Below are positions 20,339 to 64,000 of a stretch of 64,000 bases of DNA, one piece after another; within the stretch, counting starts at the first letter, position 1, and each line of letters starts with the position of its first letter. Under the pieces are notes generated by a model, which saw nothing but the letters and a program-made list of their open reading frames with translations, ran no database searches and had not been told where the DNA came from. The stretch comes from an uncultured virus (IMG/VR IMGVR_UViG_3300042393_000573). Its lineage: Duplodnaviria > Heunggongvirae > Uroviricota > Caudoviricetes. Position numbers and translations under genes: made by a program. The stretch is from IMG/VR virus record IMGVR_UViG_3300042393_000573, positions 1 through 64,000 of that record. One strand, given 5' to 3'.

Positions 20339-21100
20339 ATGATTATTCAGATTATAGGTCTTCCAGGTTCAGGAAAGACAGAGTTAGCCAAAGAACTCAA
20401 AGAAAGAATTAACGCTATTCATCTTAATGCAGATGAGGTTCGTGCAACTGTAAATTCAGATTTAGGATTTGCACCAGAAGATAGACTTGAGCAGGCTCGT
20501 CGCATGGGTGAAATGGCAAGACTTATTGCCAAGCAGGGTGTTGCTCCAGTCATTGTTGATTTTGTGTGCCCCACTGAATTAACTCGTGCAGCATTTGGCA
20601 AACCAGACATATTAATATTTATGGATACTATTTCTGAGGGTAGATTTGAAGACACCAATAAAATGTTTGAGCGACCAACCCAGTATGCCATAACATTCAT
20701 TAGTCACACATTAGATGCAGAAGCAAAGGCATCTTACATTATTAATAAGTTTGGCCTACATGATTGGTCTGCACCTACAACTCTTATGCTGGGTAGGTAC
20801 CAGCCATGGCACGAAGGCCACCACGCACTCTACAAGGAGGCTGGCAAGAGAACTGACCAAGTACTTCTTGGAGTCCGTAATACCTACAACACAAGCGAAA
20901 AAGACCCTCTTAAGTTTGATCAAGTAAAAGAGTATATTGCTAAAGATGAATTTATGGACGGGGCATTAGTATTAAGATTACCTAACATTACCAACATTGT
21001 CTATGGTCGTGATGTAGGGTATAAGATTGAGCAAGTAGATTTGGGGGCAGACATTCATGCTATTTCGGCTACTGAAAAACGCAAGCAGTTGGGTCTTTAA
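20339..21100 (+). CDS. adenylylsulfate-kinase-like domain fused to a HIGH-family nucleotidyltransferase
   Basis: GLPGSGKT, ADEVR..DLGF..DR; GRYQPWHEGH...ISAT. Confidence 0.8.
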   Translation: MIIQIIGLPGSGKTELAKELKERINAIHLNADEVRATVNSDLGFAPEDRLEQARRMGEMARLIAKQGVAPVIVDFVCPTELTRAAFGKPDILIFMDTISEGRFEDTNKMFERPTQYAITFISHTLDAEAKASYIINKFGLHDWSAPTTLMLGRYQPWHEGHHALYKEAGKRTDQVLLGVRNTYNTSEKDPLKFDQVKEYIAKDEFMDGALVLRLPNITNIVYGRDVGYKIEQVDLGADIHAISATEKRKQLGL

Positions 21101-21384: not shown

Positions 21385-21791
21385 TGTATGAATACTATGT
21401 AAGAAAAGTAGAGAATGTCGTAGATGGAGATACCATAGACGTTCTTATTGATTTAGGGTTTGATATCCTGTTTGCATCTCGTGTTAGACTGGCTGGTATT
21501 GATACCCCAGAGTCTCGCACAAAGGATCTTGCAGAAAAGGCTCTTGGTCTTGAAGCCAAAGAGTACCTAAAGAAGTCTCTAAAGGACGCTAAGTCTGTTG
21601 TAATTAAGACTGAAAAGATGGACTCATCTGAAAAGTATGGTCGCATTTTAGGCTGGGTATATATTAATGGAGACACAGTATCTCTTAATGACATGATGAT
21701 CAATGATGGTTATGCATGGGGATATCTTGGAGATACTAAGGTTAAAGATTTTGTAGCACTGGCTAAGGCAAGAAAGAAGTCTGGAAAATGA
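21384..21791 (+). CDS. thermonuclease (SNase-like)
   Basis: VVDGDTI, RLAGIDTPE, KYGRIL. Confidence 0.9.
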   Translation: MYEYYVRKVENVVDGDTIDVLIDLGFDILFASRVRLAGIDTPESRTKDLAEKALGLEAKEYLKKSLKDAKSVVIKTEKMDSSEKYGRILGWVYINGDTVSLNDMMINDGYAWGYLGDTKVKDFVALAKARKKSGK

Positions 21792-22411
21792 AAAGAAATA
21801 TTTTAGAAAAGCATGTTTATTATTATGAAAATGTTATTGAAAACCCTAAAGAACTTCTTGAAAAAATAGAAGCCACTGATCATCTACTGGGAGAAGATAC
21901 TGGAGTAAGCAAGTGGGCTGATTGGACAGCCTATCAGTCAGATTATGCATTTGGAAAACAAAAAATGATTCGTGAGCATTTATTTAATAAAGCCCATCCA
22001 GCATACAGTGAGTGTCGAGAAATTGAAAAAGAAATTACAGATTCAATTATTGCTGTATCAAAAGACTATGAGTCTATGCATCCAGGGCTAGATATTGGAA
22101 TGCTCTGCCCACTATCTATTAGTAAGTATTTTGTTGGTAGCATGATGGGCAAACATACGGATACCCATGACGATGATGAAGGCAAAACTGTGTCTGTGGT
22201 CTTATATTTAAATGACGATTATACAGGCGGAGAGATAGAATTACCAGATCATGACATTGTTGTAAAACCAACTCCAGGAAGCATTGTTGTTTTCCCATCA
22301 AGAAAACCATATTTCCATCAATCAAACACCATACTATCTGGAGAAAAATATATTGTTCCTGGGTTTTGGGAGAATAGAGTTAAATTTCAAACTGGGTGGA
22401 CTAATGGATGA
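21788..22411 (+). CDS. 2OG-Fe(II) oxygenase (P4H-like)
   Basis: HTD..YLNDDYTGGE..HQS..K. Confidence 0.88.
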   Translation: MKRNILEKHVYYYENVIENPKELLEKIEATDHLLGEDTGVSKWADWTAYQSDYAFGKQKMIREHLFNKAHPAYSECREIEKEITDSIIAVSKDYESMHPGLDIGMLCPLSISKYFVGSMMGKHTDTHDDDEGKTVSVVLYLNDDYTGGEIELPDHDIVVKPTPGSIVVFPSRKPYFHQSNTILSGEKYIVPGFWENRVKFQTGWTNG

Positions 22412-25436: not shown

Positions 25437-26012
25437 TTATCTAGTCCACCAAGCAAGATTATATCTTATTTCTTTCGTTACGTCATTAACTCCATGTTCG
25501 TATTCTTTATTTCCAGGATGCATAACTAAAGACAAAGCCTTTGGTTTCATAATTATATTTTTTTTTGGATAAAAAATTTCTCCACCACTATAGTTATTGT
25601 TAATATAAACTACAAAACCGTGAGTAATAATTGGTAGAGATGCATCATATTGAGGGTGATCTTTATCAACTTCATCAGTATGAACATCCAGTCCATGACC
25701 CGTTCTTCTAAAAATTGAGGTTATTGGTAAAAAAGAAAAATCTGAAATACCATATTCTTTAGAAAATATCGGCTTTGCTCTTTCTTCAAGCATTTTAAAG
25801 AACCAATTGTAGTCACGATACCTATCTCTTAAATTGTATTCGTCAATTTGTAGCCTATTGCCATATTGCTCTGTAAGTCCAGATCCATCATTTGAGGCAT
25901 CCCACAAGGAAATGTCTTTTGTTGCTAAATCAAGAATGTAGTCAGCCTCATCTTGAGTCAAAAAGTTTTCAACTACGACAATTTCATTATTAAATGGTCT
26001 CGATATATGCAT
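25437..26012 (-). CDS. 2OG-Fe(II) oxygenase (P4H-like)
   Basis: HTD..YSGGE..HGV..R. Confidence 0.88.
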   Translation of the reverse strand: MHISRPFNNEIVVVENFLTQDEADYILDLATKDISLWDASNDGSGLTEQYGNRLQIDEYNLRDRYRDYNWFFKMLEERAKPIFSKEYGISDFSFLPITSIFRRTGHGLDVHTDEVDKDHPQYDASLPIITHGFVVYINNNYSGGEIFYPKKNIIMKPKALSLVMHPGNKEYEHGVNDVTKEIRYNLAWWTR

Positions 26013-26052: not shown

Positions 26053-26674
26053 ATGAATAATGACTTTGACCCTAACAGACTGTCAGTTTTGCCATCTAGA
26101 TATTTTGGAACTTCTTCAGATTTAATATATAAGGTTGATAATGATAAAACAATATTATAATTTTACTACAGAAGAAGAAATTGTTTATGCTTTACAAATA
26201 TTTAAAAAATTAGAAGGTCTTTATAGAGGTAACAATAAGGGAGATAGGTATACAACATTATTTCAGGATCAGTATGATTTAGATTTCCTTACTCTTGTTT
26301 CACTCTATACTGAAAAAATAAAAAAAATATTAGAAAAAGATATATACATTCACTCATCAGCAATTGTGAAATATAATGTAGGAGATAGTATGTGCTTGCA
26401 TTCTGATATTCAAAAAGGTTGTGATGAAGATATTCTTGGTATGCTAGTTTATTTTGACGATGAATATGAAGGTGGTCAAATTGTCTTTCCAAATCAAAAA
26501 AATATTGTTAAAATAAAACCATCAAAAGGTGTTTCAATAACTTTTCCATCTCATGGAGATGAGTCTATGCACTATGTTGAAGAAGTTACAAGTGGAGTCA
26601 GGTATGCCATGACATTTTGTTTTACTACAAATAAAGTATACACAAAAGATTGTTACAGTAGCCTATACATGTAA
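26053..26674 (+). pseudogene. 2OG-Fe(II) oxygenase with an apparent frameshifting 19-nt insertion near the 5' end
   Basis: leaderless ATG 26053 frame stops at 26160; catalytic part (HSD..HYV..R) is in another frame. Confidence 0.55.
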
Positions 26675-27372: not shown

Positions 27373-27996
27373 ATGTATATGTCTGTATATGATGTAAAGA
27401 TTAAGTCCGCAGATCAAGAAGAGGATTTTTTAAATAACTTTAAAGGGAAAGTAACTTTGATTATTAATGTTACTGGTGACTGTGGTAATGCTCCTCAATA
27501 TGGAGTTATTGAAACAATATACAGAAAATACAAAGATAAAGGTTTTGAAGTAATTGCTATTCCAACCAATGATTATTGTGGCGTTGGTTTAACGTATGGA
27601 GATCATGTTTATGGAACAGACACTGCAGAATCAGCAAGAGAATTTGCAAAAACAAATTATGGAGTCACATACAAGTTTACTGAATTAATTGAATCTAACC
27701 CTTGCGAAAACCAACTTATCCCAGGATTGCCATCTAAACATGGTAAGGTTACTCCTCATGAAGTTTATAATGTTTTATGCAAAATGTCAGAGGAACTTTG
27801 GAAGAAGGATCCAACATCTGCAGATGGTGGAGGAACTTTGGGCGGTAATTTTGAAAAATATTTGGTAGGAAAAGATGGAAAATTATTAAAAAATTATGAT
27901 AATGGAGCACTGCTAAATTATTCTGAGAAGGCTGGCAGAGCAGATTTAGCATACATCAGAATTTGTAATGATATAGAAAACGCATTAGCAAAATAG
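27373..27996 (+). CDS. glutathione-peroxidase-like protein
   Basis: KGKV..INVTGDCG..QY, GFEVIAIPTND, GNFEKYLV. Confidence 0.8.
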   Translation: MYMSVYDVKIKSADQEEDFLNNFKGKVTLIINVTGDCGNAPQYGVIETIYRKYKDKGFEVIAIPTNDYCGVGLTYGDHVYGTDTAESAREFAKTNYGVTYKFTELIESNPCENQLIPGLPSKHGKVTPHEVYNVLCKMSEELWKKDPTSADGGGTLGGNFEKYLVGKDGKLLKNYDNGALLNYSEKAGRADLAYIRICNDIENALAK

Positions 27997-28220: not shown

Positions 28221-28733
28221 TTATGCTGAAAGTATCTTTGCTAATGCATTGATGGTTGCAGAAATTCGTCCAATATCACGTAATTGATCAACACTGTAAC
28301 CTTCTTGTTTTAATGTATCATAGTGTGCTTTAACACAGAAATGACATTTTCCTATGATTGAAGACGATAAAGAGTAGGCTTCAAACTTACCCTTAGTTGT
28401 TCCACCATGAGAAGTAATAGCATTCATTCTTAGTTGGGCTGGTAAGCCTTTTAAGTTTGCATCCCCAGCCATTTCTACATATGGATACCATGTATTATTT
28501 TGTGCCATAATAGCGCCAGCAGATAGTGCAGCATTTTTTTCTACTTCATCTGTTGCATTAGATACCAAAAATGTAAGTAGTTTTGAATTACCAGTTGCAA
28601 ATGCTGCTGCAATTGCAATATACAATGCATCATTAGCATCAATGGTAGATCTGTTAATTACAGCATCAAGATTAAGCCTAATATCTTTGGCATATTCGGG
28701 AAGGTTTTCGTTTAATTGTTCAACCCAAGTCAT
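28221..28733 (-). CDS. ahpD: alkyl hydroperoxide reductase AhpD
   Basis: LPEYAKDIRLN, MAQNN.WY, LRMN, CHFCVKAH. Confidence 0.9.
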   Translation of the reverse strand: MTWVEQLNENLPEYAKDIRLNLDAVINRSTIDANDALYIAIAAAFATGNSKLLTFLVSNATDEVEKNAALSAGAIMAQNNTWYPYVEMAGDANLKGLPAQLRMNAITSHGGTTKGKFEAYSLSSSIIGKCHFCVKAHYDTLKQEGYSVDQLRDIGRISATINALAKILSA

Positions 28734-29269
28734 TATAAAGTGTCTCCACCTAGCGGTCTATTGCATGCACAAAGTTCTCCAGTTTGCAGGGCATCAAGAA
28801 CTCGAAGTGCTTCATCTGCATTACGACCTACATCAAGGTTATTAACAGTTACATGCTGAATAGTATTGTCAGGATCAACAATAAAGGTTGCACGATAAGC
28901 AACTCCAGATGAGTGATGAACTCCAAGATCTCCAGCCAGTTGATGTGCTGTGTCTGCAAATGACCATGAGTTAGTTCTCTTAAGATCGTCATGAGCATTA
29001 CGCCATGCAATCTTACAAAATTCATTATCAACTGATCCAGTCATAAGGACTGTATCACGATCATTAAAATCATTAACTAAAGCATCATATGCAACAATTT
29101 CTGTTGGGCATACAAATGTAAAGTCTTTTGGATAAAACATAATTATTTTCCATTTTCCTGGAAAAGAATCTTGTGTTATAGTTTCAAATGATGAATCATC
29201 ATATGTTAATGCTCCAGGTTTAACTCCAGTTACTGCAAAGTTACCTAACTTATCTCCAACTGTTTTCAT
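28733..29269 (-). CDS. ahpC: peroxiredoxin AhpC
   Basis: FYPKDFTFVCPTE, GRN..E.LR, LCACN (actinobacterial type). Confidence 0.92.
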   Translation of the reverse strand: MKTVGDKLGNFAVTGVKPGALTYDDSSFETITQDSFPGKWKIIMFYPKDFTFVCPTEIVAYDALVNDFNDRDTVLMTGSVDNEFCKIAWRNAHDDLKRTNSWSFADTAHQLAGDLGVHHSSGVAYRATFIVDPDNTIQHVTVNNLDVGRNADEALRVLDALQTGELCACNRPLGGDTL

Positions 29270-29341
29270 TTTTTCTCTTTCTGTTAGTAGGGTAGGTTGG
29301 ATTTGCACCAACTTTCTTATCTTACCCTTATTATAATTATA

Positions 29342-31101: not shown

Positions 31102-31902
31102 TTATCCTTGTGTATTTAAAACGTCATAGTCTAAAATTAAAGATGCTCTTGGAAAATTTGCAACAGCACTATGAAAAACACCAATAGGTATATACATAAC
31201 ATCTCCAGGTTTCATAATGTATGAATCATAAGTCAAAGTTCTTTGTTGTTCATAAGTTAATGAATCTCTTTCTGTACTGTTTTTAATATGATAAATTCTA
31301 TATTCAACTTCTCCAGCGCATGTCCAAGAAACGACAGACTGCCTATCTGAATGACCAGTTCCAACATATTCATTTCCAGCAAAATTTATTAAAGACTTTA
31401 CAGTGTTTAGCATATCCTGTTTATAGAATATAGATAAAAAATTATCAAGATATGGCATGTTGTACCAACTATGTTCAAAAGAAGGTGTCTGTATGGAAAA
31501 ATTTATTTGCTTTATACGTAAAACATGTAAATCTAATTTTTTTAATGAATACATGTTTGTACTTTTGTTGTTATTATTTAACAAAATCTTTGGCCCGTGA
31601 TCCCCATGTTCTTCTTTTTTTGATTCATCATAGATATTTTCACTTACTTCATCAATTATTGGGTTATTATATTGATGATTTATTAAGCCAACAAAATCAC
31701 CCCATTCAGGAGATTGACTCATAAAACCTTTTAAAAATAAAACTTTGCCAGTTTTATCTGATTCTTTCATTTTTAATAATATAGTTTCTCTTATGTTGTT
31801 GTCGGTTGAGGAGAGGGTGAGATCTTCAGAATTTACCTTTGTTTTGTGAGTATTGTCACAATAGGGATAGGTTTTTGACCTACCACAGGTGCATTGCCTC
31901 AT
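31102..31902 (-). CDS. CDGSH Fe-S finger fused to a JmjC/cupin oxygenase
   Basis: CTCGRSKTYPYCDNTH; HSD..MKPGDVMYIP.GVFH. Confidence 0.75.
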   Translation of the reverse strand: MRQCTCGRSKTYPYCDNTHKTKVNSEDLTLSSTDNNIRETILLKMKESDKTGKVLFLKGFMSQSPEWGDFVGLINHQYNNPIIDEVSENIYDESKKEEHGDHGPKILLNNNNKSTNMYSLKKLDLHVLRIKQINFSIQTPSFEHSWYNMPYLDNFLSIFYKQDMLNTVKSLINFAGNEYVGTGHSDRQSVVSWTCAGEVEYRIYHIKNSTERDSLTYEQQRTLTYDSYIMKPGDVMYIPIGVFHSAVANFPRASLILDYDVLNTQG

Positions 31903-32701: not shown

Positions 32702-33367
32702 TTAAAATTTATTTTTATTGTAAAAATCTTTTGTTTTTATAAATCCAACAAGAACGTATCTTGTAGGTCCAGGATTTACAACTGTTACGCCATGTTTAAA
32801 TTCTTCCGTTCCTGGAAAAAGCACAAGAGATCCAGCCTTTGGTTTTAAAGATATGTTTAAGTTTTCAAAGAAAAGTTGTCCACCTTCATAATTATCATTA
32901 AGGTAAAAAATCGCTGCATACTGAATTGAAGGGTCTGTATGTACATCTGTATGAGAAAATAGTTCAACACCATCATACATTCTTTGAATAGTGTGGCAAC
33001 CAATCAATGCAAGAGACTGGTCTGTTTTTTCTATCAGATCATTTATTCTTTTTATAATTGTTTTAGCAATCAAAGAGTCTGGAATATAAAGATTTTTATC
33101 GGCCCAGTTTTCAGTAATTTCAAATTTACCTTCAGCAACAAGGTTTTCAACATCATCTCTGTTAAATTTTTCCATACAGAAAGTTTTTAAATTTTCTAAA
33201 TAAAAAGAACTCCACTCTGATTCTGTGGTTTTATTTATGATAGCAAGACAGGCATCTATCGTTTCTTGAGGAATAAAATCTTCTACTATAAAAATATTGC
33301 TATGTATTTCTTTAAAACTAACTTCTGATTCTGACAATTCTTTGGCAAAACCTTTTAAAAATGTCAT
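32702..33367 (-). CDS. 2OG-Fe(II) oxygenase
   Basis: HTD..YLNDNYEGG..HGV..R. Confidence 0.88.
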   Translation of the reverse strand: MTFLKGFAKELSESEVSFKEIHSNIFIVEDFIPQETIDACLAIINKTTESEWSSFYLENLKTFCMEKFNRDDVENLVAEGKFEITENWADKNLYIPDSLIAKTIIKRINDLIEKTDQSLALIGCHTIQRMYDGVELFSHTDVHTDPSIQYAAIFYLNDNYEGGQLFFENLNISLKPKAGSLVLFPGTEEFKHGVTVVNPGPTRYVLVGFIKTKDFYNKNKF

Positions 33368-34228: not shown

Positions 34229-34801
34229 ATGATACCTTTTAATTTAAATAATTTAACTCAAATTGGTGAAGACATATATGTATGTAAAAATTTTTTATCT
34301 AATAAAGATTTGTTAATCATAAATGATGAAATTAATTTAAAGAAAGAATTCTTGTTGGATACTAAAAATACTAGTAAAGAAATTAAAAGTCTTACCATTA
34401 TATATAATAAAATCAAACAAATAGTAAAAGATCCATATAATATTACAAATTCTAGCACCATGAATATATTAAGTGTAGGAGATACCTGGGGTCTACATGC
34501 GGACAATGGTGCCTTTTTAGATATAAGAAAGCAAAGTTTGCTTTTAAAAGAAGGGGAAGAGTTTATATTAAAAAATAATAACATTTTTGGTACTGTTGCC
34601 TATATAAACGATTTTGGTGGTGGAGAACTTAGATACCCAAACCAGTCAATTACTTATAAACCAGAGCCAGGTGATTTAGTTATTCATAGCGCAGAAGATC
34701 ATTGCACTCACGAAGTCCTTAAAGTTACATCGGGAGTTCGATATTCTTATTCAAATGGAATATATGAAAAAATAAAGGTTCCAAAGAATTTAGTTATTTA
34801 A
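34229..34801 (+). CDS. 2OG-Fe(II) oxygenase
   Basis: HAD..FGGGE..HEV..R. Confidence 0.85.
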   Translation: MIPFNLNNLTQIGEDIYVCKNFLSNKDLLIINDEINLKKEFLLDTKNTSKEIKSLTIIYNKIKQIVKDPYNITNSSTMNILSVGDTWGLHADNGAFLDIRKQSLLLKEGEEFILKNNNIFGTVAYINDFGGGELRYPNQSITYKPEPGDLVIHSAEDHCTHEVLKVTSGVRYSYSNGIYEKIKVPKNLVI

Positions 34802-35323
34802 ATCTTTTTTCCACGCATCTAAGTCTAGGCATGCTTCAGCATCTCTAGGTACCCATACTTTCTTTCCATCTTTCCATATAGGCCAGTAGCCTAGGGAACG
34901 CCAATCCATTTGAGCAATCTTAGGTTCTTTACTCAAAGTCAACTTGGCTTTCAAAGATATTTGTCATATAGTTATCTTCTCCTCTTGCTACCTTTGCAGC
35001 AAGCATACGCATGCCAAGAGCGTTGGTAACAGAATCTTGAATCATAATTGATTCAATAGACCTTGCAATCTCTTCTCGTAATGCCATTTCATCTACGCTC
35101 ATACTATTGCTCTACTTTATATGTCATTACAATATAACAAGCAATATACCCTGTAATAAGCGCTGGTATAAGAAATAGTGCGTGTATCATAATTCCTCCA
35201 ATAGTTTTACTTTATATATTTATTATACAGTACAAGTCTTGAGGTGTCAAGTCAGGCATAGAAAGTAGGGCTGATTTAATATAAAAGGTGTATAATAAAC
35301 CTATAATTCTTAGGAGGACTCAT

Positions 35324-36010
35324 ATGACAACATCTATTTATGATATTCCACTAAAATCGTGGGATGGGCAAGAAAATATGCTAAATTCCTATAAAGGCAA
35401 GGTAACAATGTTTATTAATGTTACTGCAGATTGTGGCAATGCCCCTCAATACGGCATCATAGAAATGCTATATCAAAAATACAAAGATCAAGGATTTGAA
35501 GTAGTTGCCATACCAACCAACGACTATTGTGGTCCAGGAATTACTTATGACCAGTATGAATGTGGGATTGATGGTCCAGAAGAGGCAAGAGATTATGCAA
35601 AAGAACTATACAATGTAACCTATGGGTTTTCTGAACTAGTTACATCTATGGTTGGTACATCAATCTCAAATCAAGCATTAAAAAAATTATATCCAGGTAG
35701 AACAGAATCCTTTCCAAGAAAACTGTTAGAGGGAGAAGATGTACATCCAATTTACCAAAACCTTGCAAAAAGTCTGCCAATGTTTGGAAATTTTGAAAAA
35801 TTCCTTGTTAATAAAAATGGCAAGGTTATTATAAGATATGCTAATTCTACTTTGATGGATGCTGCTACAAAAAATGGCTTTAAAGAAACAAGTTCAGGAG
35901 AAGACTTTAAGAATATATCAAATGCAATTGAAGAATTATTAGAAGATAAAGATATAACTTATTACACACACCCTGCTGGAACATTAGCGCCATATGCAAT
36001 AGTTCTCTAA
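35324..36010 (+). CDS. glutathione-peroxidase-like protein (paralog of 27373)
   Basis: INVTADCGNAPQYG, PTNDYCG, GNFEKFLV; SD AGGAGG. Confidence 0.8.
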   Translation: MTTSIYDIPLKSWDGQENMLNSYKGKVTMFINVTADCGNAPQYGIIEMLYQKYKDQGFEVVAIPTNDYCGPGITYDQYECGIDGPEEARDYAKELYNVTYGFSELVTSMVGTSISNQALKKLYPGRTESFPRKLLEGEDVHPIYQNLAKSLPMFGNFEKFLVNKNGKVIIRYANSTLMDAATKNGFKETSSGEDFKNISNAIEELLEDKDITYYTHPAGTLAPYAIVL

Positions 36011-38792: not shown

Positions 38793-39392
38793 CTAGTAAG
38801 TATTCCCTATAGCGTCAGAATCTGGAAAATATTGAAATACTAAAGATGCTCTAGGTTTGTTATTAATAACCTGATGTACCACCCCAGCAGGCACATATAC
38901 CACATCTCCTGGTTCAAGGACTACGGAGTCATACTCGGCACCTTCAATGCTTATTTTCTCCATATCCTCTTCTTTAACATTTTTATAGAATCTCCACTCA
39001 ATGGTACCAACACAGTGCCAGGAGATAACAGCGTGGTCATCACTATGGATCCAGTATTCCTGCTCATTGCCTAGGAAGTTAATAATACTTTTAATTGAAC
39101 TGATTTTATTTTTTGTCAAACCTTTTATAAGGCTTTGTGCCTCTAATGACTTATCAAATAGTCTAGTGGTTTTGTCTTCTATAGCATTAAAGATGATGGG
39201 GTCAAACTTATTATAAACCATAATGTGGTCTGTAAGGTATCTACGGTCTGGATTATTTTTATTTTTGTCTTTGTCTCTATTGTAGTTATAATCAAAGTTT
39301 TCTATGAAATCTGACCAGTTAGGCACATCTTTGCATAGCCCCCTAAATAGGGCATATGTCTTGTTGTTGGAGGCTTCTATAATTTTATCCAT
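38793..39392 (-). CDS. JmjC/cupin oxygenase
   Basis: HSD..LEPGDVVYVPAGVVH. Confidence 0.8.
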   Translation of the reverse strand: MDKIIEASNNKTYALFRGLCKDVPNWSDFIENFDYNYNRDKDKNKNNPDRRYLTDHIMVYNKFDPIIFNAIEDKTTRLFDKSLEAQSLIKGLTKNKISSIKSIINFLGNEQEYWIHSDDHAVISWHCVGTIEWRFYKNVKEEDMEKISIEGAEYDSVVLEPGDVVYVPAGVVHQVINNKPRASLVFQYFPDSDAIGNTY

Positions 39393-58976: not shown

Positions 58977-59735
58977 GTGGCAGCAGAGAATATTGACAAT
59001 ACCGTTGGTGGTACTGGGCTATTCAATGCCAAAATACCTGGACTTTCAGATGCAGCCGATATTCAAGCAGCGCTAAGACTTTACCACTATGGATCTTATG
59101 CCTATGACGGTTCAAATACAAATACCGCAAACCTTTTAACCCCATCTATTGCAAAACATTTACAGAATCTTGTAGATGCAGATGCTCTTGAAGTAGTAAA
59201 TAGAACTGCAGCAGATGCAGCAGAAGTATTAGCCAGAAATGCTGCAATTACAACACATAATTCATCTACAACAAATGTCCATGGCATAGCAGATACTTCT
59301 CTTTTAGCAACAAAGTCTTATGTAGACGGAGTTGATAAATCTTCACTTGTATCACCAAAAGAATTAACAACTATTTCTGCAACAGCAGCAACTGGAGCAA
59401 TTGATATTGATGTTGCTACTTCTTCTATTGATATTCGTACTTCCAATGCCGTCGCAAATTGGACAATAAATATTCGTGGCAATGCAACAACTACTCTTAA
59501 TTCATTAATGGCAACAGGTCAGCAAATCTCTGTTGTATTTGAATCTCCTCAAAGTGGAACTGCATATTACCCAACAGCACTTACTGTTGATGGTGCATCA
59601 GTAACTCCTAAATGGTTAGGTGGAATAGCCCCTTCTTCAGGAAACATTAACTCAACAGATGTTTATGTTTATACAATTAGGAAAACAGGTGCAGAAACAT
59701 TTACTGCTCTTGCATCACAGAACAAGTTTGCTTAG
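58977..59735 (+). CDS. putative tail-fibre protein
   Basis: HGIADT motif; C-terminal KW.GG.AP..D.Y.Y. Confidence 0.6.
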   Translation: MAAENIDNTVGGTGLFNAKIPGLSDAADIQAALRLYHYGSYAYDGSNTNTANLLTPSIAKHLQNLVDADALEVVNRTAADAAEVLARNAAITTHNSSTTNVHGIADTSLLATKSYVDGVDKSSLVSPKELTTISATAATGAIDIDVATSSIDIRTSNAVANWTINIRGNATTTLNSLMATGQQISVVFESPQSGTAYYPTALTVDGASVTPKWLGGIAPSSGNINSTDVYVYTIRKTGAETFTALASQNKFA

Positions 59736-59753: not shown

Positions 59754-61475
59754 ATGAGTCCATTATTTCGTGGCCCAAGTGGTATAGGAATATTTTTAGC
59801 AGCAACTCCTACTCCTGTAGCACCTACTCCTGTAGCACCTACTCCTGTAGAACCTACTCCTGTAGCACCTACTCCTGTAGCACCTACTCCTGTAGAACCT
59901 ACTCCTGTAGCACCTACTCCTGTAGCACCTACTCCTGTAGAACCTACTCCTGTAGCACCTACTCCTGTAACACCAACACCAGAGGTTACAATTTATGATA
60001 TTTATGTAACATGTAACGGATCAACGACTGCTTATTCAGGCGCTTATGGAACACCTCCTACAGGATCAGGAATTACAAACATTACAGGAACAACTACAAT
60101 ATCAAACTTGTCAAGTGCTGAAATTGTTACTTTATTGGGAATTCCTGCAGCATGTGTACCAACACCAACACCAACACCTGTTACTTGGTACATCTCTGGT
60201 TGCGTTAATGGAAGTCCTGTTTATGGAGAAGGTCCAACATCAGGAAGAGCCCTTGATAATCTTCTAGAAGTTCACCCAACTGCAACCAATATTACTGCAG
60301 CAAGTTCTTCAGGATATCCATCAGTAACTTGTACAACACCTACTCCAACACCTGTTGCAACAACTTGGTATATCTCTGGTTGTGTTGGTGGAACTACGGT
60401 TACTGACACAGGAGCAACATCAGGACAGGCATTAGATAATTTATTAGCAACATATCCAACTGCAACCAATATTACTGCAGCAAGTTCTTCAGGATATCCA
60501 TCAGTAACTTGTACAACACCTACACCAACTGCACCAGTTGCACCAGTTGCACCAGTTGCACCAGTTGCACCAACATGTGTACCAACCTGGACAACAACAA
60601 CAACTTACGGTGAGTGGGGTCCTTGGGGTGCTTGTGTAAGAGTTGGTGGCCCAGATGAATATGCACAAACAAGAACTAGATCGTATACTATAACAGAAAC
60701 TGCAAGTGGATGTTCTCCAAACCCAGCCCCAATTGTTACAACAGGAACAGATTCGGACACACAAGACTGTACGCCTCCAGCAACAGGACCATTCTTCCCA
60801 CCGTTCTTCCCACCGTTCTTCCCACCGTTCTTCCCACCATCATTCTGTCCGTTCTTCCCACCAGTATTCTGTCCATTCTTCCCACCAGTATTCTGTCCAT
60901 TCTTCCCACCAGTATTTACCCCAACTCCAACTGAACCAACACCAGTTGCACCAATTGATGGATGTGTACAGGGTGATGTTCTTGTAAGAACAACTAGTGG
61001 ATATGTTAAAGCAAGAGATTTGTTTATAGGACAAAGTCTAGTATCCTACAGTTTCAATGAATTACCAGATAACTCATCTGTTGATTTTGCTGAGACATGG
61101 GTATCTGATACTCTAACTGGATCATCAGTTGTTGAAACAACTATTAGTGCAATTAAGGCAAGAGATGTTGCAACTACTGTAATGTTTAATGGTAGTAAGC
61201 AAAGAAGATTCTCTCTAGAGCACTTAATGCTAGTTAAGAGAGATGGAGTATACGCATTTATTCAGGCTGGTGTAATTAAACTTGGCGACTATTTAGTTTA
61301 TGACATAAATAATCAAGCAACAGATGTACTTGTTGAAGTATTGGGTTATGTTGATGAAACAACAGATGTTTATGACATCACTGTAAATCCTTATTCACTC
61401 TTTATTGCAGGAGATCTAATCTCTCATAATAAGAAGGGTGTCTTCCAAGGCCTAACACAAAGAGATTCAGAATAA
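59754..61475 (+). CDS. Pro/Thr-rich repeat protein with C-terminal Hint domain
   Basis: (xPTPV)n, duplicated Cys domains, WGPWGAC..RTR, (PPFF)n, C..SLEH..VYDI..HN. Confidence 0.8.
   Translation: MSPLFRGPSGIGIFLAATPTPVAPTPVAPTPVEPTPVAPTPVAPTPVEPTPVAPTPVAPTPVEPTPVAPTPVTPTPEVTIYDIYVTCNGSTTAYSGAYGTPPTGSGITNITGTTTISNLSSAEIVTLLGIPAACVPTPTPTPVTWYISGCVNGSPVYGEGPTSGRALDNLLEVHPTATNITAASSSGYPSVTCTTPTPTPVATTWYISGCVGGTTVTDTGATSGQALDNLLATYPTATNITAASSSGYPSVTCTTPTPTAPVAPVAPVAPVAPTCVPTWTTTTTYGEWGPWGACVRVGGPDEYAQTRTRSYTITETASGCSPNPAPIVTTGTDSDTQDCTPPATGPFFPPFFPPFFPPFFPPSFCPFFPPVFCPFFPPVFCPFFPPVFTPTPTEPTPVAPIDGCVQGDVLVRTTSGYVKARDLFIGQSLVSYSFNELPDNSSVDFAETWVSDTLTGSSVVETTISAIKARDVATTVMFNGSKQRRFSLEHLMLVKRDGVYAFIQAGVIKLGDYLVYDINNQATDVLVEVLGYVDETTDVYDITVNPYSLFIAGDLISHNKKGVFQGLTQRDSE
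59806..59970 (+). repeat. 15-bp tandem repeat, 11 units, with 45-bp higher-order period
   Basis: CCTACTCCTGTAG(C/A)A units encoding APTPV, APTPV, EPTPV. Confidence 0.9.
60788..60917 (+). repeat. PPFF / FCPFFPPV coding repeats
   Basis: 12-bp and 24-bp units built on TTCTTCCCACC. Confidence 0.85.
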
Positions 61476-61476
61476 A

Positions 61477-61674
61477 ATGAACGAAGTAAATCCTTTACAC
61501 ATGCTTAATTTAAAAAATTATGTAAAGGAATCAGATCTCTCTAATCAAAGATTTAATATATGCAAACAATGTCCAGAACTAATAAAATTAACAAAACAAT
61601 GTAAAAAATGTGGATGTTTTATGAAAGCAAAAGTAATGTTAGAAGCAGCATCGTGTCCGTTAGGAAAATGGTAA
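61477..61674 (+). CDS. small Cys-rich protein (DUF6171-like)
   Basis: R..ICKQCP..CKKCGCFM..K..CPLGKW. Confidence 0.7.
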   Translation: MNEVNPLHMLNLKNYVKESDLSNQRFNICKQCPELIKLTKQCKKCGCFMKAKVMLEAASCPLGKW

Positions 61675-62189
61675 TGATAAAAGAAGAAATTGCTCCAGGA
61701 ATTGTTGTATATGATAATGTAATTCCAGATAATGTTTTTTTATATAAAGAAATTCAAAAATTGATGATGGATTCTAAATGGATTACACCTAAATGGTCTT
61801 ATGCAGAAGTTGAAGATTTAGAAAAAATAACTTCTTTAAAATTAAACAGGTTGTTCTTTGATCATTTTGATCCAATAGAGAAAGACTATAAAGAGTATTA
61901 TAAGATATTTCCTGAATGGCATGACGTATACGGAATAATGAAATATAGTCCAGGACAAGGTTTTATTAATCATGTAGATGACGGAACCGAATATCATAGA
62001 AGAGTTTCAGTTGTATATTATTTAAATGATGATTATATTGGTGGAGAAATAAACTTTCCAAGATTTAATATTAAACTTAAACCAAAAACTAATCAAATAA
62101 TTATATTTCCATCTATATATGTTTATAATCACTCAGTATCCCCAATTATTGAAGGCGATAAATATGCAGTAGTTAGTTTTCTACGATGA
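61674..62189 (+). CDS. 2OG-Fe(II) prolyl-4-hydroxylase-like oxygenase
   Basis: HVD..YLNDDYIGGE..HSV..K; TAATG-coupled start. Confidence 0.88.
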   Translation: MIKEEIAPGIVVYDNVIPDNVFLYKEIQKLMMDSKWITPKWSYAEVEDLEKITSLKLNRLFFDHFDPIEKDYKEYYKIFPEWHDVYGIMKYSPGQGFINHVDDGTEYHRRVSVVYYLNDDYIGGEINFPRFNIKLKPKTNQIIIFPSIYVYNHSVSPIIEGDKYAVVSFLR

Positions 62190-62746
62190 AAGCGCCATAT
62201 TTATTAAAAACCGTTCTTCCAGAAAAAGAACATAAGGAATTACAAGATCTAGCAATGCATCTTTGGTCAACAGATAAAAGTACATTTGACGAAGGTTTTG
62301 GTAGACATCAATGGGCAATTTGGGACGGAACACATAGAGAAAATATAATACCACTTAGAAAATTTCATCAGATGCTTCTACCACTGGCAAAAGAAGAATT
62401 TGAATCAGAAACATTACTTCCTTCCTGGTGTTTATTAAGTATCTATGAAGGAGAAAAGGCTAGACTTTGGAAACATGTTGATGATAATGCTTGTACATAC
62501 CATATGAATTATACAATTTTTCATAAAACACCTTGGGATTTTTATGTTGAAGGAATAAAGTTTCAACCAGAAGAAAATGATATGGTTATTTCATACGGGA
62601 ATGATCAACAACACTGGAGAGAGGAATTCCCTGACCCAAAGAATAACCTAGTTGCAAATGCTTTTTTCTTTTATGTAGAGCCAGATCATTGGTTTTTTAC
62701 AAAAGGCCCACAACATTTATATACTGGAATAAGAAATAAGGGATGA
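62186..62746 (+). CDS. 2OG-Fe(II) oxygenase (HWR type)
   Basis: KHVDDNAC...QHWREEF. Confidence 0.75.
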   Translation: MKAPYLLKTVLPEKEHKELQDLAMHLWSTDKSTFDEGFGRHQWAIWDGTHRENIIPLRKFHQMLLPLAKEEFESETLLPSWCLLSIYEGEKARLWKHVDDNACTYHMNYTIFHKTPWDFYVEGIKFQPEENDMVISYGNDQQHWREEFPDPKNNLVANAFFFYVEPDHWFFTKGPQHLYTGIRNKG

Positions 62747-63696
62747 AAAAAATATTAGTTAGTGTTGTCAATTATTGTGACCCAGAGTTTTATTCTACAA
62801 TGTTTTCTTTGTGGCATCAGGCAAAAAATAAAGAGGATCTGTATTTTTCTATAGTTTCAGAAGATAATACTAAATATGATTTATCTTTTATACCAAAAGA
62901 ACAGTTATTATATAGGCACTTTGATCTTTCAGAGTATAGGGGTGGTGTCTGTTGGGCTAGAAACTTGGCAACTCAAGTTAATGTAGATTATAACTATTTT
63001 ATACAGTTTGATTCACACACCTATGCAGCACCAGAATGGGATAGGTTTGCTGTTGAAAGATATGAAAAATTAAATATTAATAATGAAAAATTTATTATTG
63101 CATATGCCCCAGCAGAGTATAAAATAATGTCAGACGGGTCAATTAATTTTGTTACAGACTGTAAAGTATCACTGTATGGATTTTTATTTAATAATTTAGT
63201 TCCAGGATTTCAGTTTCCAGGATACAGGGTTTTAGAAATAGAGGAAATAGTTCGTTCGTATTGGGCTACATGTTGTTACCTTTTTGCACCCAAGCAATGG
63301 ATTGATGAAGTTGGTATTAGCGGTAAAGAATCATTCAATACTGAAGAGTTTGCTTTATCTTTAAGAACTTATGCAAAAGATTGGAAAATTTACTCTATTG
63401 GCACAAGGGATGTTTTTCACAATCAGTCGCATGGACAGGCAAATGGATCTGTAACAAGAGAAACGCTTAGGCCTTGGGCAGACGGCAGAAAAGAACACTA
63501 CTGGAGCCATGTTGAAGAATCAACTAATAGACTGTCTATGCTAATGTCTGGTCAATTAGAAATTCCAAAAGAAAAAGTTTACAATTTTCTTAAAGAGTCT
63601 GGTATAGACACAAAATACACAGACTTTATTCCAAACTACAGTTCACATGTTGTAGTTGAGCCTAGGGCACTTGGCATGCCACCAAGAAGGAATTAG
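62743..63696 (+). CDS. GT-A glycosyltransferase, GT60 (Skp1-hydroxyproline GlcNAc-transferase)-like
   Basis: ILVSVVNYCDPE..T..L...A, GVCWARNL, YFIQFDSH..WD, EE..LSLR.Y..W. Confidence 0.75.
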   Translation: MKKILVSVVNYCDPEFYSTMFSLWHQAKNKEDLYFSIVSEDNTKYDLSFIPKEQLLYRHFDLSEYRGGVCWARNLATQVNVDYNYFIQFDSHTYAAPEWDRFAVERYEKLNINNEKFIIAYAPAEYKIMSDGSINFVTDCKVSLYGFLFNNLVPGFQFPGYRVLEIEEIVRSYWATCCYLFAPKQWIDEVGISGKESFNTEEFALSLRTYAKDWKIYSIGTRDVFHNQSHGQANGSVTRETLRPWADGRKEHYWSHVEESTNRLSMLMSGQLEIPKEKVYNFLKESGIDTKYTDFIPNYSSHVVVEPRALGMPPRRN

Positions 63697-64000
63697 CGAG
63701 GAAACTTAGCCATCCATTCCTTAGTCTTTGGAGTGATGCCTTTCCAAGAAGACCAGTCGTCCCCACCCTTTGTCATGTAGTATGCAATTTCAGCATTCTT
63801 GACGGGATTAAATAATTCAGCGTTAGAGTCAAGATCAAACTTGTCCCTACGATCAGGACCAAGTGTATCAATCATATTAATTTGGAACATACCATAAGAC
63901 GAATCCCCAGTCTTGTGATTGCCATTAAAGGCCAATGGTCGTCCATTAGATTCTTTCTTTGCTACTGCCCAAGCCACAACAAGGTCTTTACCCTTGAAGC
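63693..64000 (-). CDS. lysozyme-like / lytic transglycosylase (5' end outside window)
   Basis: AKKESNG..DSSYGMFQIN..NP..NA..A..WSSW. Confidence 0.8.
   Translation of the reverse strand, partial: FKGKDLVVAWAVAKKESNGRPLAFNGNHKTGDSSYGMFQINMIDTLGPDRRDKFDLDSNAELFNPVKNAEIAYYMTKGGDDWSSWKGITPKTKEWMAKFPR

What the first reader, a model, noticed from the sequence alone, without database searches (positions are those of the whole stretch)
59754..63696. Candidate hydroxyproline O-glycosylation operon acting on a Pro-rich virion protein
Seen: five genes joined by a 1-nt gap, TAATG, ATGA and ATGA encode a mucin- or extensin-like protein with (A/E)PTPV repeats, a small Cys-rich protein, a P4H-like oxygenase, a second 2OG oxygenase and a GT60-like glycosyltransferase with the QFDSH motif. 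Established: in Dictyostelium and Toxoplasma a prolyl-4-hydroxylase (PhyA) and a GT60 enzyme (Gnt1) add GlcNAc to hydroxyproline of Skp1; trypanosomatid GT60 enzymes modify Thr in mucins. Inference: the phage carries a substrate plus modifying enzymes for eukaryote-like glycosylation of its tail appendage, which could stiffen it, shield it or alter host range.
Basis: partly seen in the sequence, partly recalled or inferred. Interest (0 to 1): 0.85.

Follow-up and report, generated by a model that had tools for sequence, protein, structure and literature searches.

The report
Phage fibre glycosylation gene cassette
An uncultured phage encodes, right behind a mucin-like tail-fibre-region protein, a small set of enzymes (two oxygenases and a protein-type sugar transferase) that most likely decorate that protein with sugars; this has been shown for only a few phages, and not with these enzyme families.

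Summary
Five translationally coupled genes (59754-63696) encode: A, a 573-aa protein with 11 PTPV(A/E) repeats; B, a 6-Cys DUF6171 protein; C, a P4H-like oxygenase (PF13640); D, a second 2OG-oxygenase-fold protein with no Pfam family; and E, a PF11397 (GT60) transferase with the DxH motif, whose model best matches mucin-type polypeptide GalNAc-transferases.

- A ends in a complete bacterial-intein-like (Hint) self-cleaving domain, preceded by FFPP repeats.
- B is fused to E or to D in other phages.
- The operon is one allele of a hypervariable sugar-modification island between the fibre gene and a lysozyme-like gene. Related phages carry other transferases, NDP-sugar enzymes, a sulfotransferase and cupins there.

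Pro/Thr-linker fibre proteins were never seen without such enzymes (0 of 24 architectures). C is optional. B and D are the steady partners of E.

Most likely the cassette hydroxylates and O-glycosylates the linkers of the adjacent fibre protein in the host cytoplasm. Whether the sugar sits on Thr or on hydroxyproline is open, and nothing here is biochemical. I rate it a new variant of a known kind (phage virion glycosylation; protist GT60 pathways). Earlier notes of this scan describe similar cassettes in other genomes.

The parts
58977..59735 (+). Fibre-anchor-like protein (252 aa). Its N-terminal domain is fused to the Pro/Thr-linker protein in related phages.
   Evidence: phrog_5906, E 9e-26. 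In L018-L022, L045 and L061 the homologous N-terminus and the PT-linker/Cys-domain part form one ORF of 783-993 aa.
59754..61475 (+). Gene A: modular mucin-like protein (573 aa), the candidate substrate.
   Evidence: ORF. No PHROG family. Hypervariable between phages whose GT is 100% identical: 570, 573 and 633 aa.
59808..59974 (+). PTPV(A/E) linker: 15-bp unit x11.1.
   Evidence: Tandem Repeats Finder, 95% matches, score 306; translation.
60183..60529 (+). Two copies of a 60-aa Cys-containing domain (TWYISGC...), separated by TPTPTP.
   Evidence: 180-bp period x1.9. A third copy is present in L008/L010. No Pfam family at E up to 10.
60576..60785 (+). Small Cys domain with a W-x-x-W-x-x-C pattern. 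The resemblance to thrombospondin type 1 repeats is unconfirmed.
   Evidence: Only a sub-threshold Pfam hit: TSP1_CFP_C, E 0.057, 14.3 bits against a cut-off of 27.
60788..60916 (+). FFPP / FCPFFPPV aromatic-proline repeats just before the Hint domain.
   Evidence: 12/24/48-bp periods. Analogous aromatic repeats (FGA, GFYH, FSPFG, FSVFGF) precede the Hint-like domain in relatives.
60963..61430 (+). C-terminal bacterial-intein-like (Hint) domain, Cys404 to His558-Asn559, followed by a 14-residue tail.
   Evidence: The alignment shows block A Cys, block B S/T-x-x-H, block F and a terminal HN. Profile against PDB: BIL domain 2lwy E 1e-7, gp41-1 intein 5e-7, RadA intein 2e-6. Pfam Intein_splicing only 22.4 bits against a cut-off of 35.8.
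61477..61674 (+). Gene B: DUF6171 protein with six invariant Cys. It is a constant companion of the fibre gene and is fused to E or D elsewhere.
   Evidence: PF19668, E 5e-8. Invariant C29, C32, C42, C45, C47 and C60. Fusions: P0110, DUF6171+PF11397; L069, 400 aa; P0151 and P0153, DUF6171+D; an Atlas cluster of 52 fused members. Present in 33 of 36 island architectures.
61674..62189 (+). Gene C: P4H-like 2OG/Fe(II) oxygenase (optional in relatives).
   Evidence: PF13640, 51.4 bits against a cut-off of 27. Best PDB sequence hits: Bacillus anthracis P4H 3itq/5hv0 at E 2.5e-4, PBCV-1 P4H 5c5t at 0.0099, then PHD2. Present in 14 of 31 GT clusters.
62186..62746 (+). Gene D: 2OG-oxygenase-fold protein of an unnamed family. 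It is the steady oxygenase partner of E.
   Evidence: No Pfam or PDB sequence hit. Model pLDDT 95.1. Foldseek: PHD2, AlkB, P. putida P4H, Dictyostelium PhyA, E about 2e-7. VIA-align: 6n1f Z 16.9, HalB 16.0, PHDs 14.7-15.4. H97, D99, R145 and H168 are invariant and H143 nearly so. 1,824 cluster representatives at E up to 1e-3. Present in 26 of 31 GT clusters.
62743..63696 (+). Gene E: PF11397 (GT60-type) polypeptide HexNAc-transferase-like enzyme with the D90-S91-H92 motif.
   Evidence: PF11397, 73.6 bits against a cut-off of 21. Model pLDDT 95.6. All listed rows among the top 50 Foldseek PDB ranks are GT27 polypeptide GalNAc-transferases, E 2e-10. VIA-align wide: GalNAc-T1 Z 19.1 over 265 residues, T. 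gondii GalNAc-T3 Z 18.5, then SpsA Z 17.0. DxH conservation.
63693..64000 (-). Convergent lysozyme-like (SLT_3) gene that bounds the island. It runs on to G000 position 64283.
   Evidence: PF18896, E 2e-14. Full ORF of 196 aa at L002 4694-5284. Conserved next to the cassette in relatives.

Best explanation
The five genes are one allele of a phage 'fibre glycosylation island'.

Gene A encodes a hypervariable, modular adhesin-like protein of the tail-fibre module. It is built of small Cys-containing domains strung on Pro/Thr linkers.

During infection the cytoplasmic enzymes encoded just downstream modify those linkers. The 2OG oxygenases (D always, C in some phages) hydroxylate linker residues, most plausibly proline. 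The GT60/GT27-like transferase E adds a HexNAc from a host UDP-sugar to linker Thr and/or hydroxyproline, giving a mucin- or extensin-like stiff, protease-resistant, shielded stalk.

B, a six-Cys and probably metal-binding protein, travels with the fibre gene and is fused to E or D elsewhere. It probably docks the enzymes on the fibre protein or helps the fibre assemble.

The C-terminal Hint domain of A probably removes itself by N-S acyl shift at Cys404 and Asn559 cyclisation once it has served in folding or assembly.

Shown here: gene order, family and fold assignments, catalytic motifs, fusions and co-occurrence. Inferred: every enzymatic step, the substrate, the acceptor residue and the virion location.
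For: 1. Tight coupling of A-B-C-D-E: a 1-nt gap and 1- and 4-nt overlaps.

2. E belongs to the only GT-A clade known for polypeptide Ser/Thr (and Hyp) O-HexNAc initiation. PF11397 scores above its cut-off. The DxH motif replaces DxD as in GT27/GT60 (passages of PMC7185993). GT27 enzymes are the best structural matches by two aligners.

3. C is P4H-like by sequence. D has a 2OG-oxygenase fold with a conserved HxD...H.

4. Rosetta-stone fusions tie the genes together: DUF6171+GT, DUF6171+D, and D+PF13640 oxygenase in P0271, P0329, P0333 and P0352.

5. Linkage survives divergence and gene-order change. In 31 GT clusters (33-100% identity to E), D occurs in 26 and B in 25. Of the 21 clusters with at least 2.5 kb upstream, 17 have a PT-linker protein within 7 ORFs.

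6. Anchoring instead on the neighbouring lysozyme-like gene gave 36 distinct architectures. PT-linker protein with enzymes: 24. PT-linker protein without enzymes: 0. Enzymes without a PT score: 7. Neither: 5. Fisher p = 0.002, not corrected for relatedness. At least 3 of the 7 are misses of my metric: (PAVT)n in L068 and Thr-rich linkers in L075 and L116.

7. The same slot in relatives holds NDP-sugar epimerase/dehydratases, GT61, a GT2-like protein, a nucleotidyltransferase, a methyltransferase, cupins and a sulfotransferase. That is a sugar-building and tailoring repertoire.

8. Precedent: phage-encoded glycosylation of capsid and tail-tube proteins in mycobacteriophages (Freeman et al. 2023). 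I saw this only as a cited passage in PMC12619734.
Against: - There is no biochemical or proteomic evidence.
- PT-rich linkers occur in at least two other proteins of this phage (13685-15478 and 16834-18015). They are therefore a common idiom here, and A need not be the only target, or the target at all.
- One GT lineage (L024-L026, 51% identity) sits in an oxygenase/DUF6065 island with no fibre gene nearby.
- C is missing from 17 of 31 GT clusters (5 of the 17 have under 1 kb upstream).
- D's substrate class is undetermined. The top VIA rows include an uncharacterised oxygenase, an amino-acid halogenase and sugar-acting AviO1/EvdMO1 within 2.5 Z of the prolyl hydroxylases. 8 of 43 family members give weak AlkB-type (PF13532) hits.
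- Only 5 of the 24 PT-positive architectures carry a PF11397 transferase.
- The association counts are not phylogenetically independent.
Confidence: 0.5

Rival explanations
1. Strict Skp1-like route. C (or D) makes 4-hydroxyproline in PTPV, and E transfers GlcNAc only to that hydroxyproline, as PhyA and Gnt1 do in Dictyostelium and Toxoplasma.
For: - A P4H-like gene and a GT60-type gene sit in one operon.
- Dictyostelium PhyA (6t8m) is among the fold matches of D: Foldseek rank 10, VIA Z 14.7.
- 23 of 24 PT-linker architectures carry C and/or D.
Against: - PF11397 transferases occur beside poly-Thr or PT-linker proteins with no oxygenase in the slot: L027/L028/L055, L037, L070.
- C is optional.
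- The literature describes GT60/GT27 as sharing polypeptide Ser/Thr O-glycosylation (passage of PMC7185993).
- Thr, not Pro, is common to nearly all the linker types seen.
Confidence: 0.2
2. The cassette is an auxiliary gene set aimed at something other than the phage's own fibre: host envelope proteins or polymers, or other phage proteins with PT linkers. Its place next to the fibre gene is inherited synteny.
For: - The L024-L026 GT lies in an oxygenase island without fibre genes.
- The window holds five PF13640 genes above cut-off, two just below it, and two JmjC-type cupins scattered elsewhere.
- Other PT-linker proteins exist in the phage.
Against: - Translational coupling to A.
- The slot stays next to the fibre gene while its content turns over.
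- No PT-linker fibre protein occurs without enzymes, 0 of 24.
- B stays with the fibre gene even where no enzymes are present: L072, L079, L086, L136, L140.
Confidence: 0.12
3. DNA or nucleotide hypermodification: the oxygenases oxidise a base and E glycosylates it, as in phage TET-plus-glycosyltransferase systems.
For: - 8 of 43 D-family members give weak AlkB-type PF13532 hits, and AlkB is among D's Foldseek matches.
- Two other oxygenases of the window give sub-threshold Tet_JBP hits.
Against: - E matches the polypeptide-transferase family and fold, not known DNA glycosyltransferases.
- The cassette lies in the fibre module, not the replication module.
- Co-variation with protein linkers.
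Confidence: 0.04
4. B is itself the substrate: a small Cys-rich peptide tailored by C, D and E, like a glycocin or other modified peptide.
For: B is small and Cys-rich, and it directly precedes the enzymes.
Against: - B is fused N-terminally to E or to D as a domain.
- B occurs beside fibre genes with no enzymes at all.
- No leader-core organisation is visible. The six Cys are invariant, as in a metal site.
Confidence: 0.04

Closest known systems
Mucin-type O-glycosylation initiation by GT27 polypeptide GalNAc-transferases and GT60 polypeptide alpha-GlcNAc-transferases (Trypanosoma cruzi, Dictyostelium)
   Same: - GT-A fold with DxH in place of DxD (PMC7185993 passages).
- Best structural matches are GT27 enzymes.
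- The candidate acceptor is a Thr/Pro-rich repeat.
   Different: - Encoded by a bacteriophage, with no signal peptide or lectin domain.
- 317 aa, the catalytic domain only.
- Partnered with a DUF6171 Cys-rich protein and 2OG oxygenases.
- The sugar and the acceptor residue are unknown.
Skp1 hydroxyproline glycosylation pathway of Dictyostelium and Toxoplasma (PhyA P4H, then Gnt1 of GT60, then further transferases)
   Same: Cytoplasmic oxygenase(s) plus a GT60-type transferase encoded together. PhyA is among D's fold matches.
   Different: - The candidate substrate is a repetitive fibre-region protein, not Skp1.
- C resembles collagen-type or bacterial P4Hs rather than PHD-type by sequence.
- The oxygenase is dispensable in some lineages.
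- This operon has no chain-extending transferases.
Virion glycosylation in mycobacteriophages (Freeman et al. 2023; seen only as a cited passage in PMC12619734)
   Same: Phage-encoded glycosyltransferases acting on the phage's own structural proteins. The host here is probably also an actinobacterium. That is inferred from a DnaE-type polymerase 60% identical to those of Streptomyces phages and from PASTA domains in relatives' fibre proteins.
   Different: - The reported targets are the C-termini of capsid and tail-tube subunits. Here the candidate is a modular fibre-region protein with internal linkers.
- The enzyme set here includes 2OG oxygenases, DUF6171 and a GT60-type enzyme.
- I could not read the paper to compare transferase families.
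PBCV-1 viral prolyl 4-hydroxylase acting on virus-encoded proline-rich repeats (recalled; the structure 5c5t appears)
   Same: A virus-encoded P4H-like enzyme together with virus-encoded Pro-rich repeat proteins.
   Different: That is a eukaryotic giant virus, with no linked GT60-type transferase known to me. Here the virus is a tailed phage.
Bacterial intein-like (BIL) domains and Hedgehog-type C-terminal autoprocessing domains
   Same: - Blocks A, B, F and G are present, with Cys1 and a terminal His-Asn.
- The best PDB profile hit is a BIL domain.
- The domain sits in a hypervariable surface-type protein, as a review states for BILs (PMC7765530 passages).
   Different: - It lies at the C-terminus of a phage fibre-module protein, preceded by aromatic short repeats.
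- A Cys-less, HN-less variant is a conserved separate gene in the same phages.
- Its function in phages is not described in the papers I searched.

Membership tests
CAZy GT60 / Pfam PF11397 (gene E) | Match to the family profile above its curated cut-off | tested here: met
   73.6 bits against a cut-off of 21, E 2.6e-20. All 120 listed homologues carry PF11397.
CAZy GT60 / Pfam PF11397 (gene E) | DxH metal-binding motif in place of DxD (shared by GT27 and GT60) | tested here: met
   D90-S91-H92 is invariant in 24 of 24 sequences and is D-x-H in 40 of 46. The 6 exceptions are the most distant group, with C-[GA]-H. The motif rule comes from passages of PMC7185993.
CAZy GT60 / Pfam PF11397 (gene E) | GT-A fold closest to the polypeptide GalNAc-transferases (GT27) | tested here: met
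   Foldseek: every listed row among the top 50 PDB ranks is a GT27 enzyme, E 2e-10. VIA-align wide: GalNAc-T1 Z 19.1 (265 aligned, rmsd 3.6), TgGalNAc-T3 Z 18.5, next SpsA Z 17.0. The margin over generic GT-A folds is about 2 Z.
CAZy GT60 / Pfam PF11397 (gene E) | Placement in a tree with characterised members (Gnt1, TcOGNT) | not tested
   No reference sequence of a characterised GT60 was available from any tool. No solved structure matched by sequence.
CAZy GT60 / Pfam PF11397 (gene E) | Retaining transfer of GlcNAc from UDP-GlcNAc to a polypeptide hydroxyl | not testable with these tools
   Needs an enzyme assay.
Skp1-type PhyA/Gnt1 pathway | The hydroxylase is an obligatory partner of the transferase | tested here: not met
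   C is absent from 17 of 31 GT clusters (5 of them with under 1 kb upstream). Neither C nor D lies in the slot in L023, L027/L028/L055 and L037, nor in L070.
Skp1-type PhyA/Gnt1 pathway | The substrate is Skp1 | not tested
   I ran no search for Skp1. The adjacent candidate substrate is a PT-repeat protein. That bacteria lack Skp1 is recalled, not tested.
Skp1-type PhyA/Gnt1 pathway | Further transferases extend the first sugar | tested here: not met
   Only one glycosyltransferase is in this operon. Relatives do carry extra sugar enzymes in the same slot.
Prolyl 4-hydroxylase-like 2OG oxygenases, PF13640 (gene C) | Profile match above cut-off, and an HxD...H...K pattern | tested here: met
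   51.4 bits against a cut-off of 27. H-V-D, a later His, and a Lys about 10 residues after it can be read in the translation. The best solved relatives are P4Hs, E 2.5e-4.
Prolyl 4-hydroxylase-like 2OG oxygenases, PF13640 (gene C) | Hydroxylates peptidyl proline | not testable with these tools
   Needs an assay. PF13640 members have diverse substrates.
2OG/Fe(II) oxygenase superfamily (gene D) | Double-stranded beta-helix fold with a conserved HxD...H | tested here: met
   Model pLDDT 95.1. All 500 counted Foldseek matches are at E up to 0.001, and the listed ones are 2OG oxygenases. VIA Z up to 16.9. H97 and D99 are invariant, H143 nearly so.
2OG/Fe(II) oxygenase superfamily (gene D) | Membership of a named Pfam family | tested here: not met
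   No hit for D. Among 43 family members there are only sub-threshold PF13532 hits in 8 and a PF05118 hit in 1. hhalign against C is not significant, probability 0.5%.
Hint superfamily, bacterial intein-like type (C-terminus of A) | Blocks A (Cys1), B (TxxH), F and G (terminal His-Asn) | tested here: met
   Alignment A4 of 9 sequences. Profile against PDB: BIL domain 2lwy E 1e-7, then inteins.
Hint superfamily, bacterial intein-like type (C-terminus of A) | Pfam Hint-clan model above its cut-off | tested here: inconclusive
   Intein_splicing at 22.4 bits against a cut-off of 35.8. Relatives give weak Hint or Hom_end_hint hits.
Hint superfamily, bacterial intein-like type (C-terminus of A) | Autocatalytic cleavage | not testable with these tools
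   Needs expression of wild type and Cys404/Asn559 mutants.

The most novel reading that the evidence does not exclude
These phages run a complete, eukaryote-like hydroxyproline-rich-glycoprotein pathway in the bacterial cytoplasm. 2OG oxygenases convert linker Pro to Hyp. A GT60-type enzyme (or, in sister phages, GT61-type and other transferases with their own NDP-sugar supply) then glycosylates Hyp and Thr. The C-terminal Hint domain uses its thioester intermediate not just to cut itself off but to ligate the glycosylated fibre covalently to another virion protein or to a cell-wall amine. That would be a Hedgehog-like transfer reaction in a phage.
Probability: 0.1. Interest if true: 0.9.

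Novelty: new variant of a known kind. Interest (0 to 1): 0.62.

Why it matters
Glycosylation of phage particles by the phage's own enzymes has been demonstrated for only a few actinophages. If this cassette works as proposed, an abundant group of uncultured phages coats a hypervariable adhesin with glycans that differ from phage to phage. At least 586 IMG/VR stretches carry the flanking lysozyme-like gene. Such coats would bear on host recognition, particle stability, and escape from proteases or receptor-blocking defences.

It would also be a prokaryotic-virus setting for enzyme families (GT60/GT27-like, P4H-like) otherwise studied in protists, plants and animals. It offers compact, soluble, single-domain enzymes for peptide glycoengineering. 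It gives first functional contexts for DUF6171 and for an unnamed 2OG-oxygenase family of about 1,800 clusters. The Hint-terminated fibre proteins raise a separate, testable question about self-cleaving or self-ligating phage fibres.

Tried and rejected
Whether B binds E or D is untested.
- The search for related loci with the wide GT alignment A1 failed because no conserved stretch was found. I used the narrower A3 instead.
- Scanning one genome per prokaryote species with A3 found no relative. So I cannot say whether cellular genomes carry this cassette.
- GenBank phages: no near-identical DNA. Only one distant protein match to E: Xanthomonas phage XacN1, 24%.
- The search for longer proteins containing B found only 2. 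The fusions came from other searches.
- hhalign of D against C was not significant.
- NCBIfam gave nothing useful for A, B, D or E.
- The thrombospondin-type reading of the Cys domain at 60576-60785 stays a resemblance only.
- Promoter and terminator scans were at chance level.
- Read-through from the upstream anchor gene into A is rejected, because three stops intervene.
- Freeman et al. 2023 (PMC10527164) is not held.
- Literature searches found nothing describing this system: 'GT60'+'bacteriophage', 3 papers, judged from titles and abstract starts in the listing; five terms on P4H, phage, glycosyltransferase, tail fiber and hydroxyproline, 10 papers, same basis; 'DUF6171', 0 papers; 'bacterial intein-like'+phage+tail, 5 papers on toxins and inteins. 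Subscription journals are not covered.

Full report
**Context.** The window is the first 64 kb of a 72,334-bp linear IMG/VR virus record, estimated 66% complete. It encodes a DnaE-type polymerase about 60% identical to those of Streptomyces phages. It also encodes RecA/UvsX, a large terminase, a carbamoyltransferase and an endolysin. Five PF13640 oxygenases score above cut-off (including gene C), two more score just below it, and there are two JmjC-type cupins and an APS-kinase-like gene. From about 56 kb onward the genes are fibre-like: collagen-repeat and tail-fibre PHROGs. Long fibre-like ORFs continue past the window.

**The observation.** The five ORFs, their junctions and their repeats are as described.
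- A (573 aa) has 11 PTPV(A/E) units, two copies of a 60-aa Cys-containing domain, an (APV)n stretch, a further small Cys domain and FFPP/FCPFFPPV repeats.
- B is a DUF6171 protein.
- C is a PF13640 oxygenase.
- E is a PF11397 transferase, 73.6 bits against a cut-off of 21.
- D has no Pfam or PDB sequence match.

**What the enzymes are.**

*Gene E.*
- The model is confident, pLDDT 95.6.
- Every listed row among the top 50 Foldseek PDB ranks is a GT27 polypeptide GalNAc-transferase, E about 2e-10.
- An aligner that does not depend on Foldseek also puts GalNAc-T1 first (Z 19.1, 265 residues) and Toxoplasma GalNAc-T3 second (Z 18.5). Generic GT-A enzymes such as SpsA follow at Z 17.0.
- D90-S91-H92 is invariant among closer relatives. 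It is D-x-H in 40 of 46 across the wider family; the six most distant sequences have C-[GA]-H.
- Passages of Taujale et al. 2020 (PMC7185993) state three things: DxH replaces DxD in GT27 and GT60; the two families are sister groups sharing polypeptide Ser/Thr O-glycosylation; and GT60 is known from prokaryotes and protists.
- In the viral structure library the nearest models are uncharacterised 'Glycosyltransferase, GlcNAc' proteins of uncultured tailed phages.

*Gene C.* Its best solved relatives by sequence are Bacillus anthracis P4H (E 2.5e-4), PBCV-1 P4H and PHD2.

*Gene D.*
- It models at pLDDT 95.1 as a double-stranded beta-helix.
- Foldseek lists PHD2, AlkB, Pseudomonas P4H, Dictyostelium PhyA and PBCV-1 P4H at E about 2e-7.
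- VIA-align puts an uncharacterised Burkholderia oxygenase first (Z 16.9) and HalB next (16.0). Prolyl hydroxylases score 14.4-15.4 and sugar-acting AviO1/EvdMO1 14.4-14.6.
- H97, D99, R145 and H168 are invariant and H143 nearly so.
- D is therefore a 2OG oxygenase of an unnamed family with 1,824 cluster representatives at E up to 1e-3. Its substrate cannot be read from the fold. Weak AlkB-type hits occur in 8 of 43 members.

Residues 404-559 are a Hint domain.
- Aligned with relatives, they show Cys1, the S/T-x-x-H block, block F and a terminal His-Asn.
- A profile of nine such domains hits a solved bacterial intein-like domain (2lwy, E 1e-7) and then mini-inteins.
- Pfam alone is sub-threshold.
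- The residue after His-Asn is Lys and only 14 residues follow. Splicing is therefore unlikely, and self-excision by N- and C-terminal cleavage is the expected chemistry. A review attributes that chemistry to BIL domains in hypervariable bacterial proteins (PMC7765530).
- A second gene at the contig end (L002 12400-13335) joins two FN3 domains, FFPP/FCPFFPPV repeats and the start of the same Hint domain. It is 75-85% identical to A in DNA over the repeats and the Hint start.
- In relatives the Hint-like domain is always preceded by short aromatic repeats: FGA, GFYH, FSPFG, FSVFGF. A Cys-less, HN-less form exists.

**Linkage, anchored on E.** Searches with E and three distant homologues brought 59 loci, which form 31 clusters at 95% GT identity.

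| Feature | Clusters (of 31) |
|---|---|
| D | 26 |
| B | 25 |
| C | 14 |
| Hint-terminated upstream protein | 8 |
| Sulfotransferase (PF03567, 22.8 bits against a cut-off of 22) | 2 |

- Of the 21 clusters with at least 2.5 kb upstream, 17 have a protein with at least 30 residues of Pro-rich linker within seven ORFs.
- Exceptions: a DUF6171-GT fusion beside a poly-Thr protein with no oxygenase (L027/L028/L055); a C-x-H variant GT beside an (SPVGV)n-Hint protein (L023); a truncated case (L057); and a GT inside an oxygenase/DUF6065 island with no fibre gene (L024-L026).
- The upstream proteins are strikingly modular. They carry PASTA or FN3 domains or the anchor domain of gene 58977-59735, then many small Cys domains separated by PT-type linkers.
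- They differ in domain number even between phages whose GT is 100% identical.

**Fusions.**
- DUF6171+PF11397: P0110, L069 and an Atlas cluster of 52 members.
- DUF6171+D: P0151 and P0153.
- D+PF13640: four representatives.

**Linkage, anchored on the neighbour.** A profile of the convergent lysozyme-like gene matched 586 viral stretches, of which the best 80 were kept. In 38 of these the fibre anchor or at least 8 kb was visible, giving 36 distinct architectures.

| | PT-linker protein present | PT-linker protein absent |
|---|---|---|
| Enzymes present (C, D, PF11397 GT or sulfotransferase) | 24 | 7 |
| Enzymes absent | 0 | 5 |

- Fisher p = 0.002. The rows are related, so this is not a probability of independence.
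- Three of the seven 'enzymes only' cases have linkers my metric missed: (PAVT)n in L068 and Thr-rich mucin-like stretches in L075 and L116.
- 23 of the 24 PT-positive architectures carry C and/or D. Only 5 carry a PF11397 GT.
- The others hold GT61 transferases, NDP-sugar epimerase/dehydratases, a nucleotidyltransferase, a GT2-like protein, HtrL/YibB, a methyltransferase, cupins, and several families of 320-350 aa with no name.
- B is present in 33 of 36 architectures, including all five without enzymes. B therefore belongs first of all to the fibre gene.

**Reading.** The slot between the fibre gene and the lysozyme-like gene is a variable glycosylation island, and the finding is one of its alleles.
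- The strongest inference is that the island acts on the adjacent linker-rich protein.
- The acceptor is open. Thr is the commonest feature of the linkers, and GT60/GT27 enzymes are Ser/Thr transferases. But oxygenases track Pro-containing linkers closely, and the one characterised Hyp transferase is also GT60 (established knowledge, recalled).
- I put about 0.5 on 'hydroxylation plus O-glycosylation of the fibre linkers, Thr and/or Hyp' and 0.2 on the strict Hyp-only route. The remainder goes to other targets.
- None of the enzymes has a signal peptide or membrane segment in its translation, so the chemistry would take place in the host cytoplasm before assembly.

**Against my reading.**
- There is no experimental datum.
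- PT linkers also occur in two unrelated proteins of this phage.
- One GT lineage has no fibre neighbour.
- D may act on a sugar or on another residue.

**Novelty.**
- Phage-encoded virion glycosylation is known from mycobacteriophages. I saw this as a cited passage only; the paper itself is not held.
- My four literature searches found no description of GT60-type enzymes, DUF6171 or Hint domains in phage fibre modules. Subscription journals were not searched.
- Earlier notes of this scan describe similar cassettes in at least eight other genomes. Those are unchecked AI notes and not independent support. They agree on the fibre-linker association, and one had already singled out the small Cys-rich protein as the steady partner.

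Noticed in passing
L002:12400-13335 (= G000 71399-72334, beyond the window; cut by the contig end): A second Hint-terminated gene: two FN3 domains, long FFPP/FCPFFPPV repeats, then the same Hint start as gene A (75-85% DNA identity over the repeats). Relatives keep a gene of this type about 7 kb downstream of the island, some with a Cys-less, HN-less Hint-like domain preceded by FGA, GFYH or FSPFG repeats.
   Followed up: partly
window 16834-18015 (+): A 393-aa protein with a lipoprotein-like N-terminus, a (PT)14 linker and an HExxH metallopeptidase motif. It matches no PHROG or Pfam family. It is another possible substrate for linker modification.
   Followed up: no
window 13685-15478 (+): A 597-aa protein with a stretch of about 100 residues of PEPSPEPT-type acidic Pro-rich repeats. 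It matches no family.
   Followed up: no
window 20339-21100 (+); L017:1958-2749 and L021:5832-6626: An APS-kinase-like gene in the window (PF01583, E 8e-15). Related phages carry a Sulfotransfer_2-type gene inside the island, between the fibre gene and B. Together these hint at sulfation of the fibre or its glycan in some lineages.
   Followed up: partly
window 19156-19815, 21788-22411, 25437-26012 (-), 26135-26674, 32702-33367 (-), 34229-34801; 31102-31902 (-), 38793-39392 (-): Six further P4H-like PF13640 genes (four above cut-off, two just below) and two JmjC-type cupins are scattered through the genome. Two of the PF13640 genes give sub-threshold Tet_JBP hits. Their targets are unknown.
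   Followed up: no
window 27373-27996, 35288-36010 (+); 28221-29311 (-): Redox genes unusual for a phage: two glutathione-peroxidase-like genes, an AhpC/TSA peroxiredoxin and a CMD-family (AhpD-like) protein.
   Followed up: no
L066:10643-12256 (-), L068:11236-12273 (-), L074:11624-12640 (-): In sister phages the island holds GT61-family transferases (46 bits against a cut-off of 27), one of them fused to a cupin. A 339-aa protein gives a sub-threshold hit to protein O-fucosyltransferase. From recall, these families are known for glycosylating small Cys-rich domains in eukaryotes.
   Followed up: partly
L130:11774-13228 (-), L111:10894-12162 (-): The fibre-region Hint proteins of relatives use quite different short repeats as linkers: (INT)n and (TPAYTF)n.
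   Followed up: no
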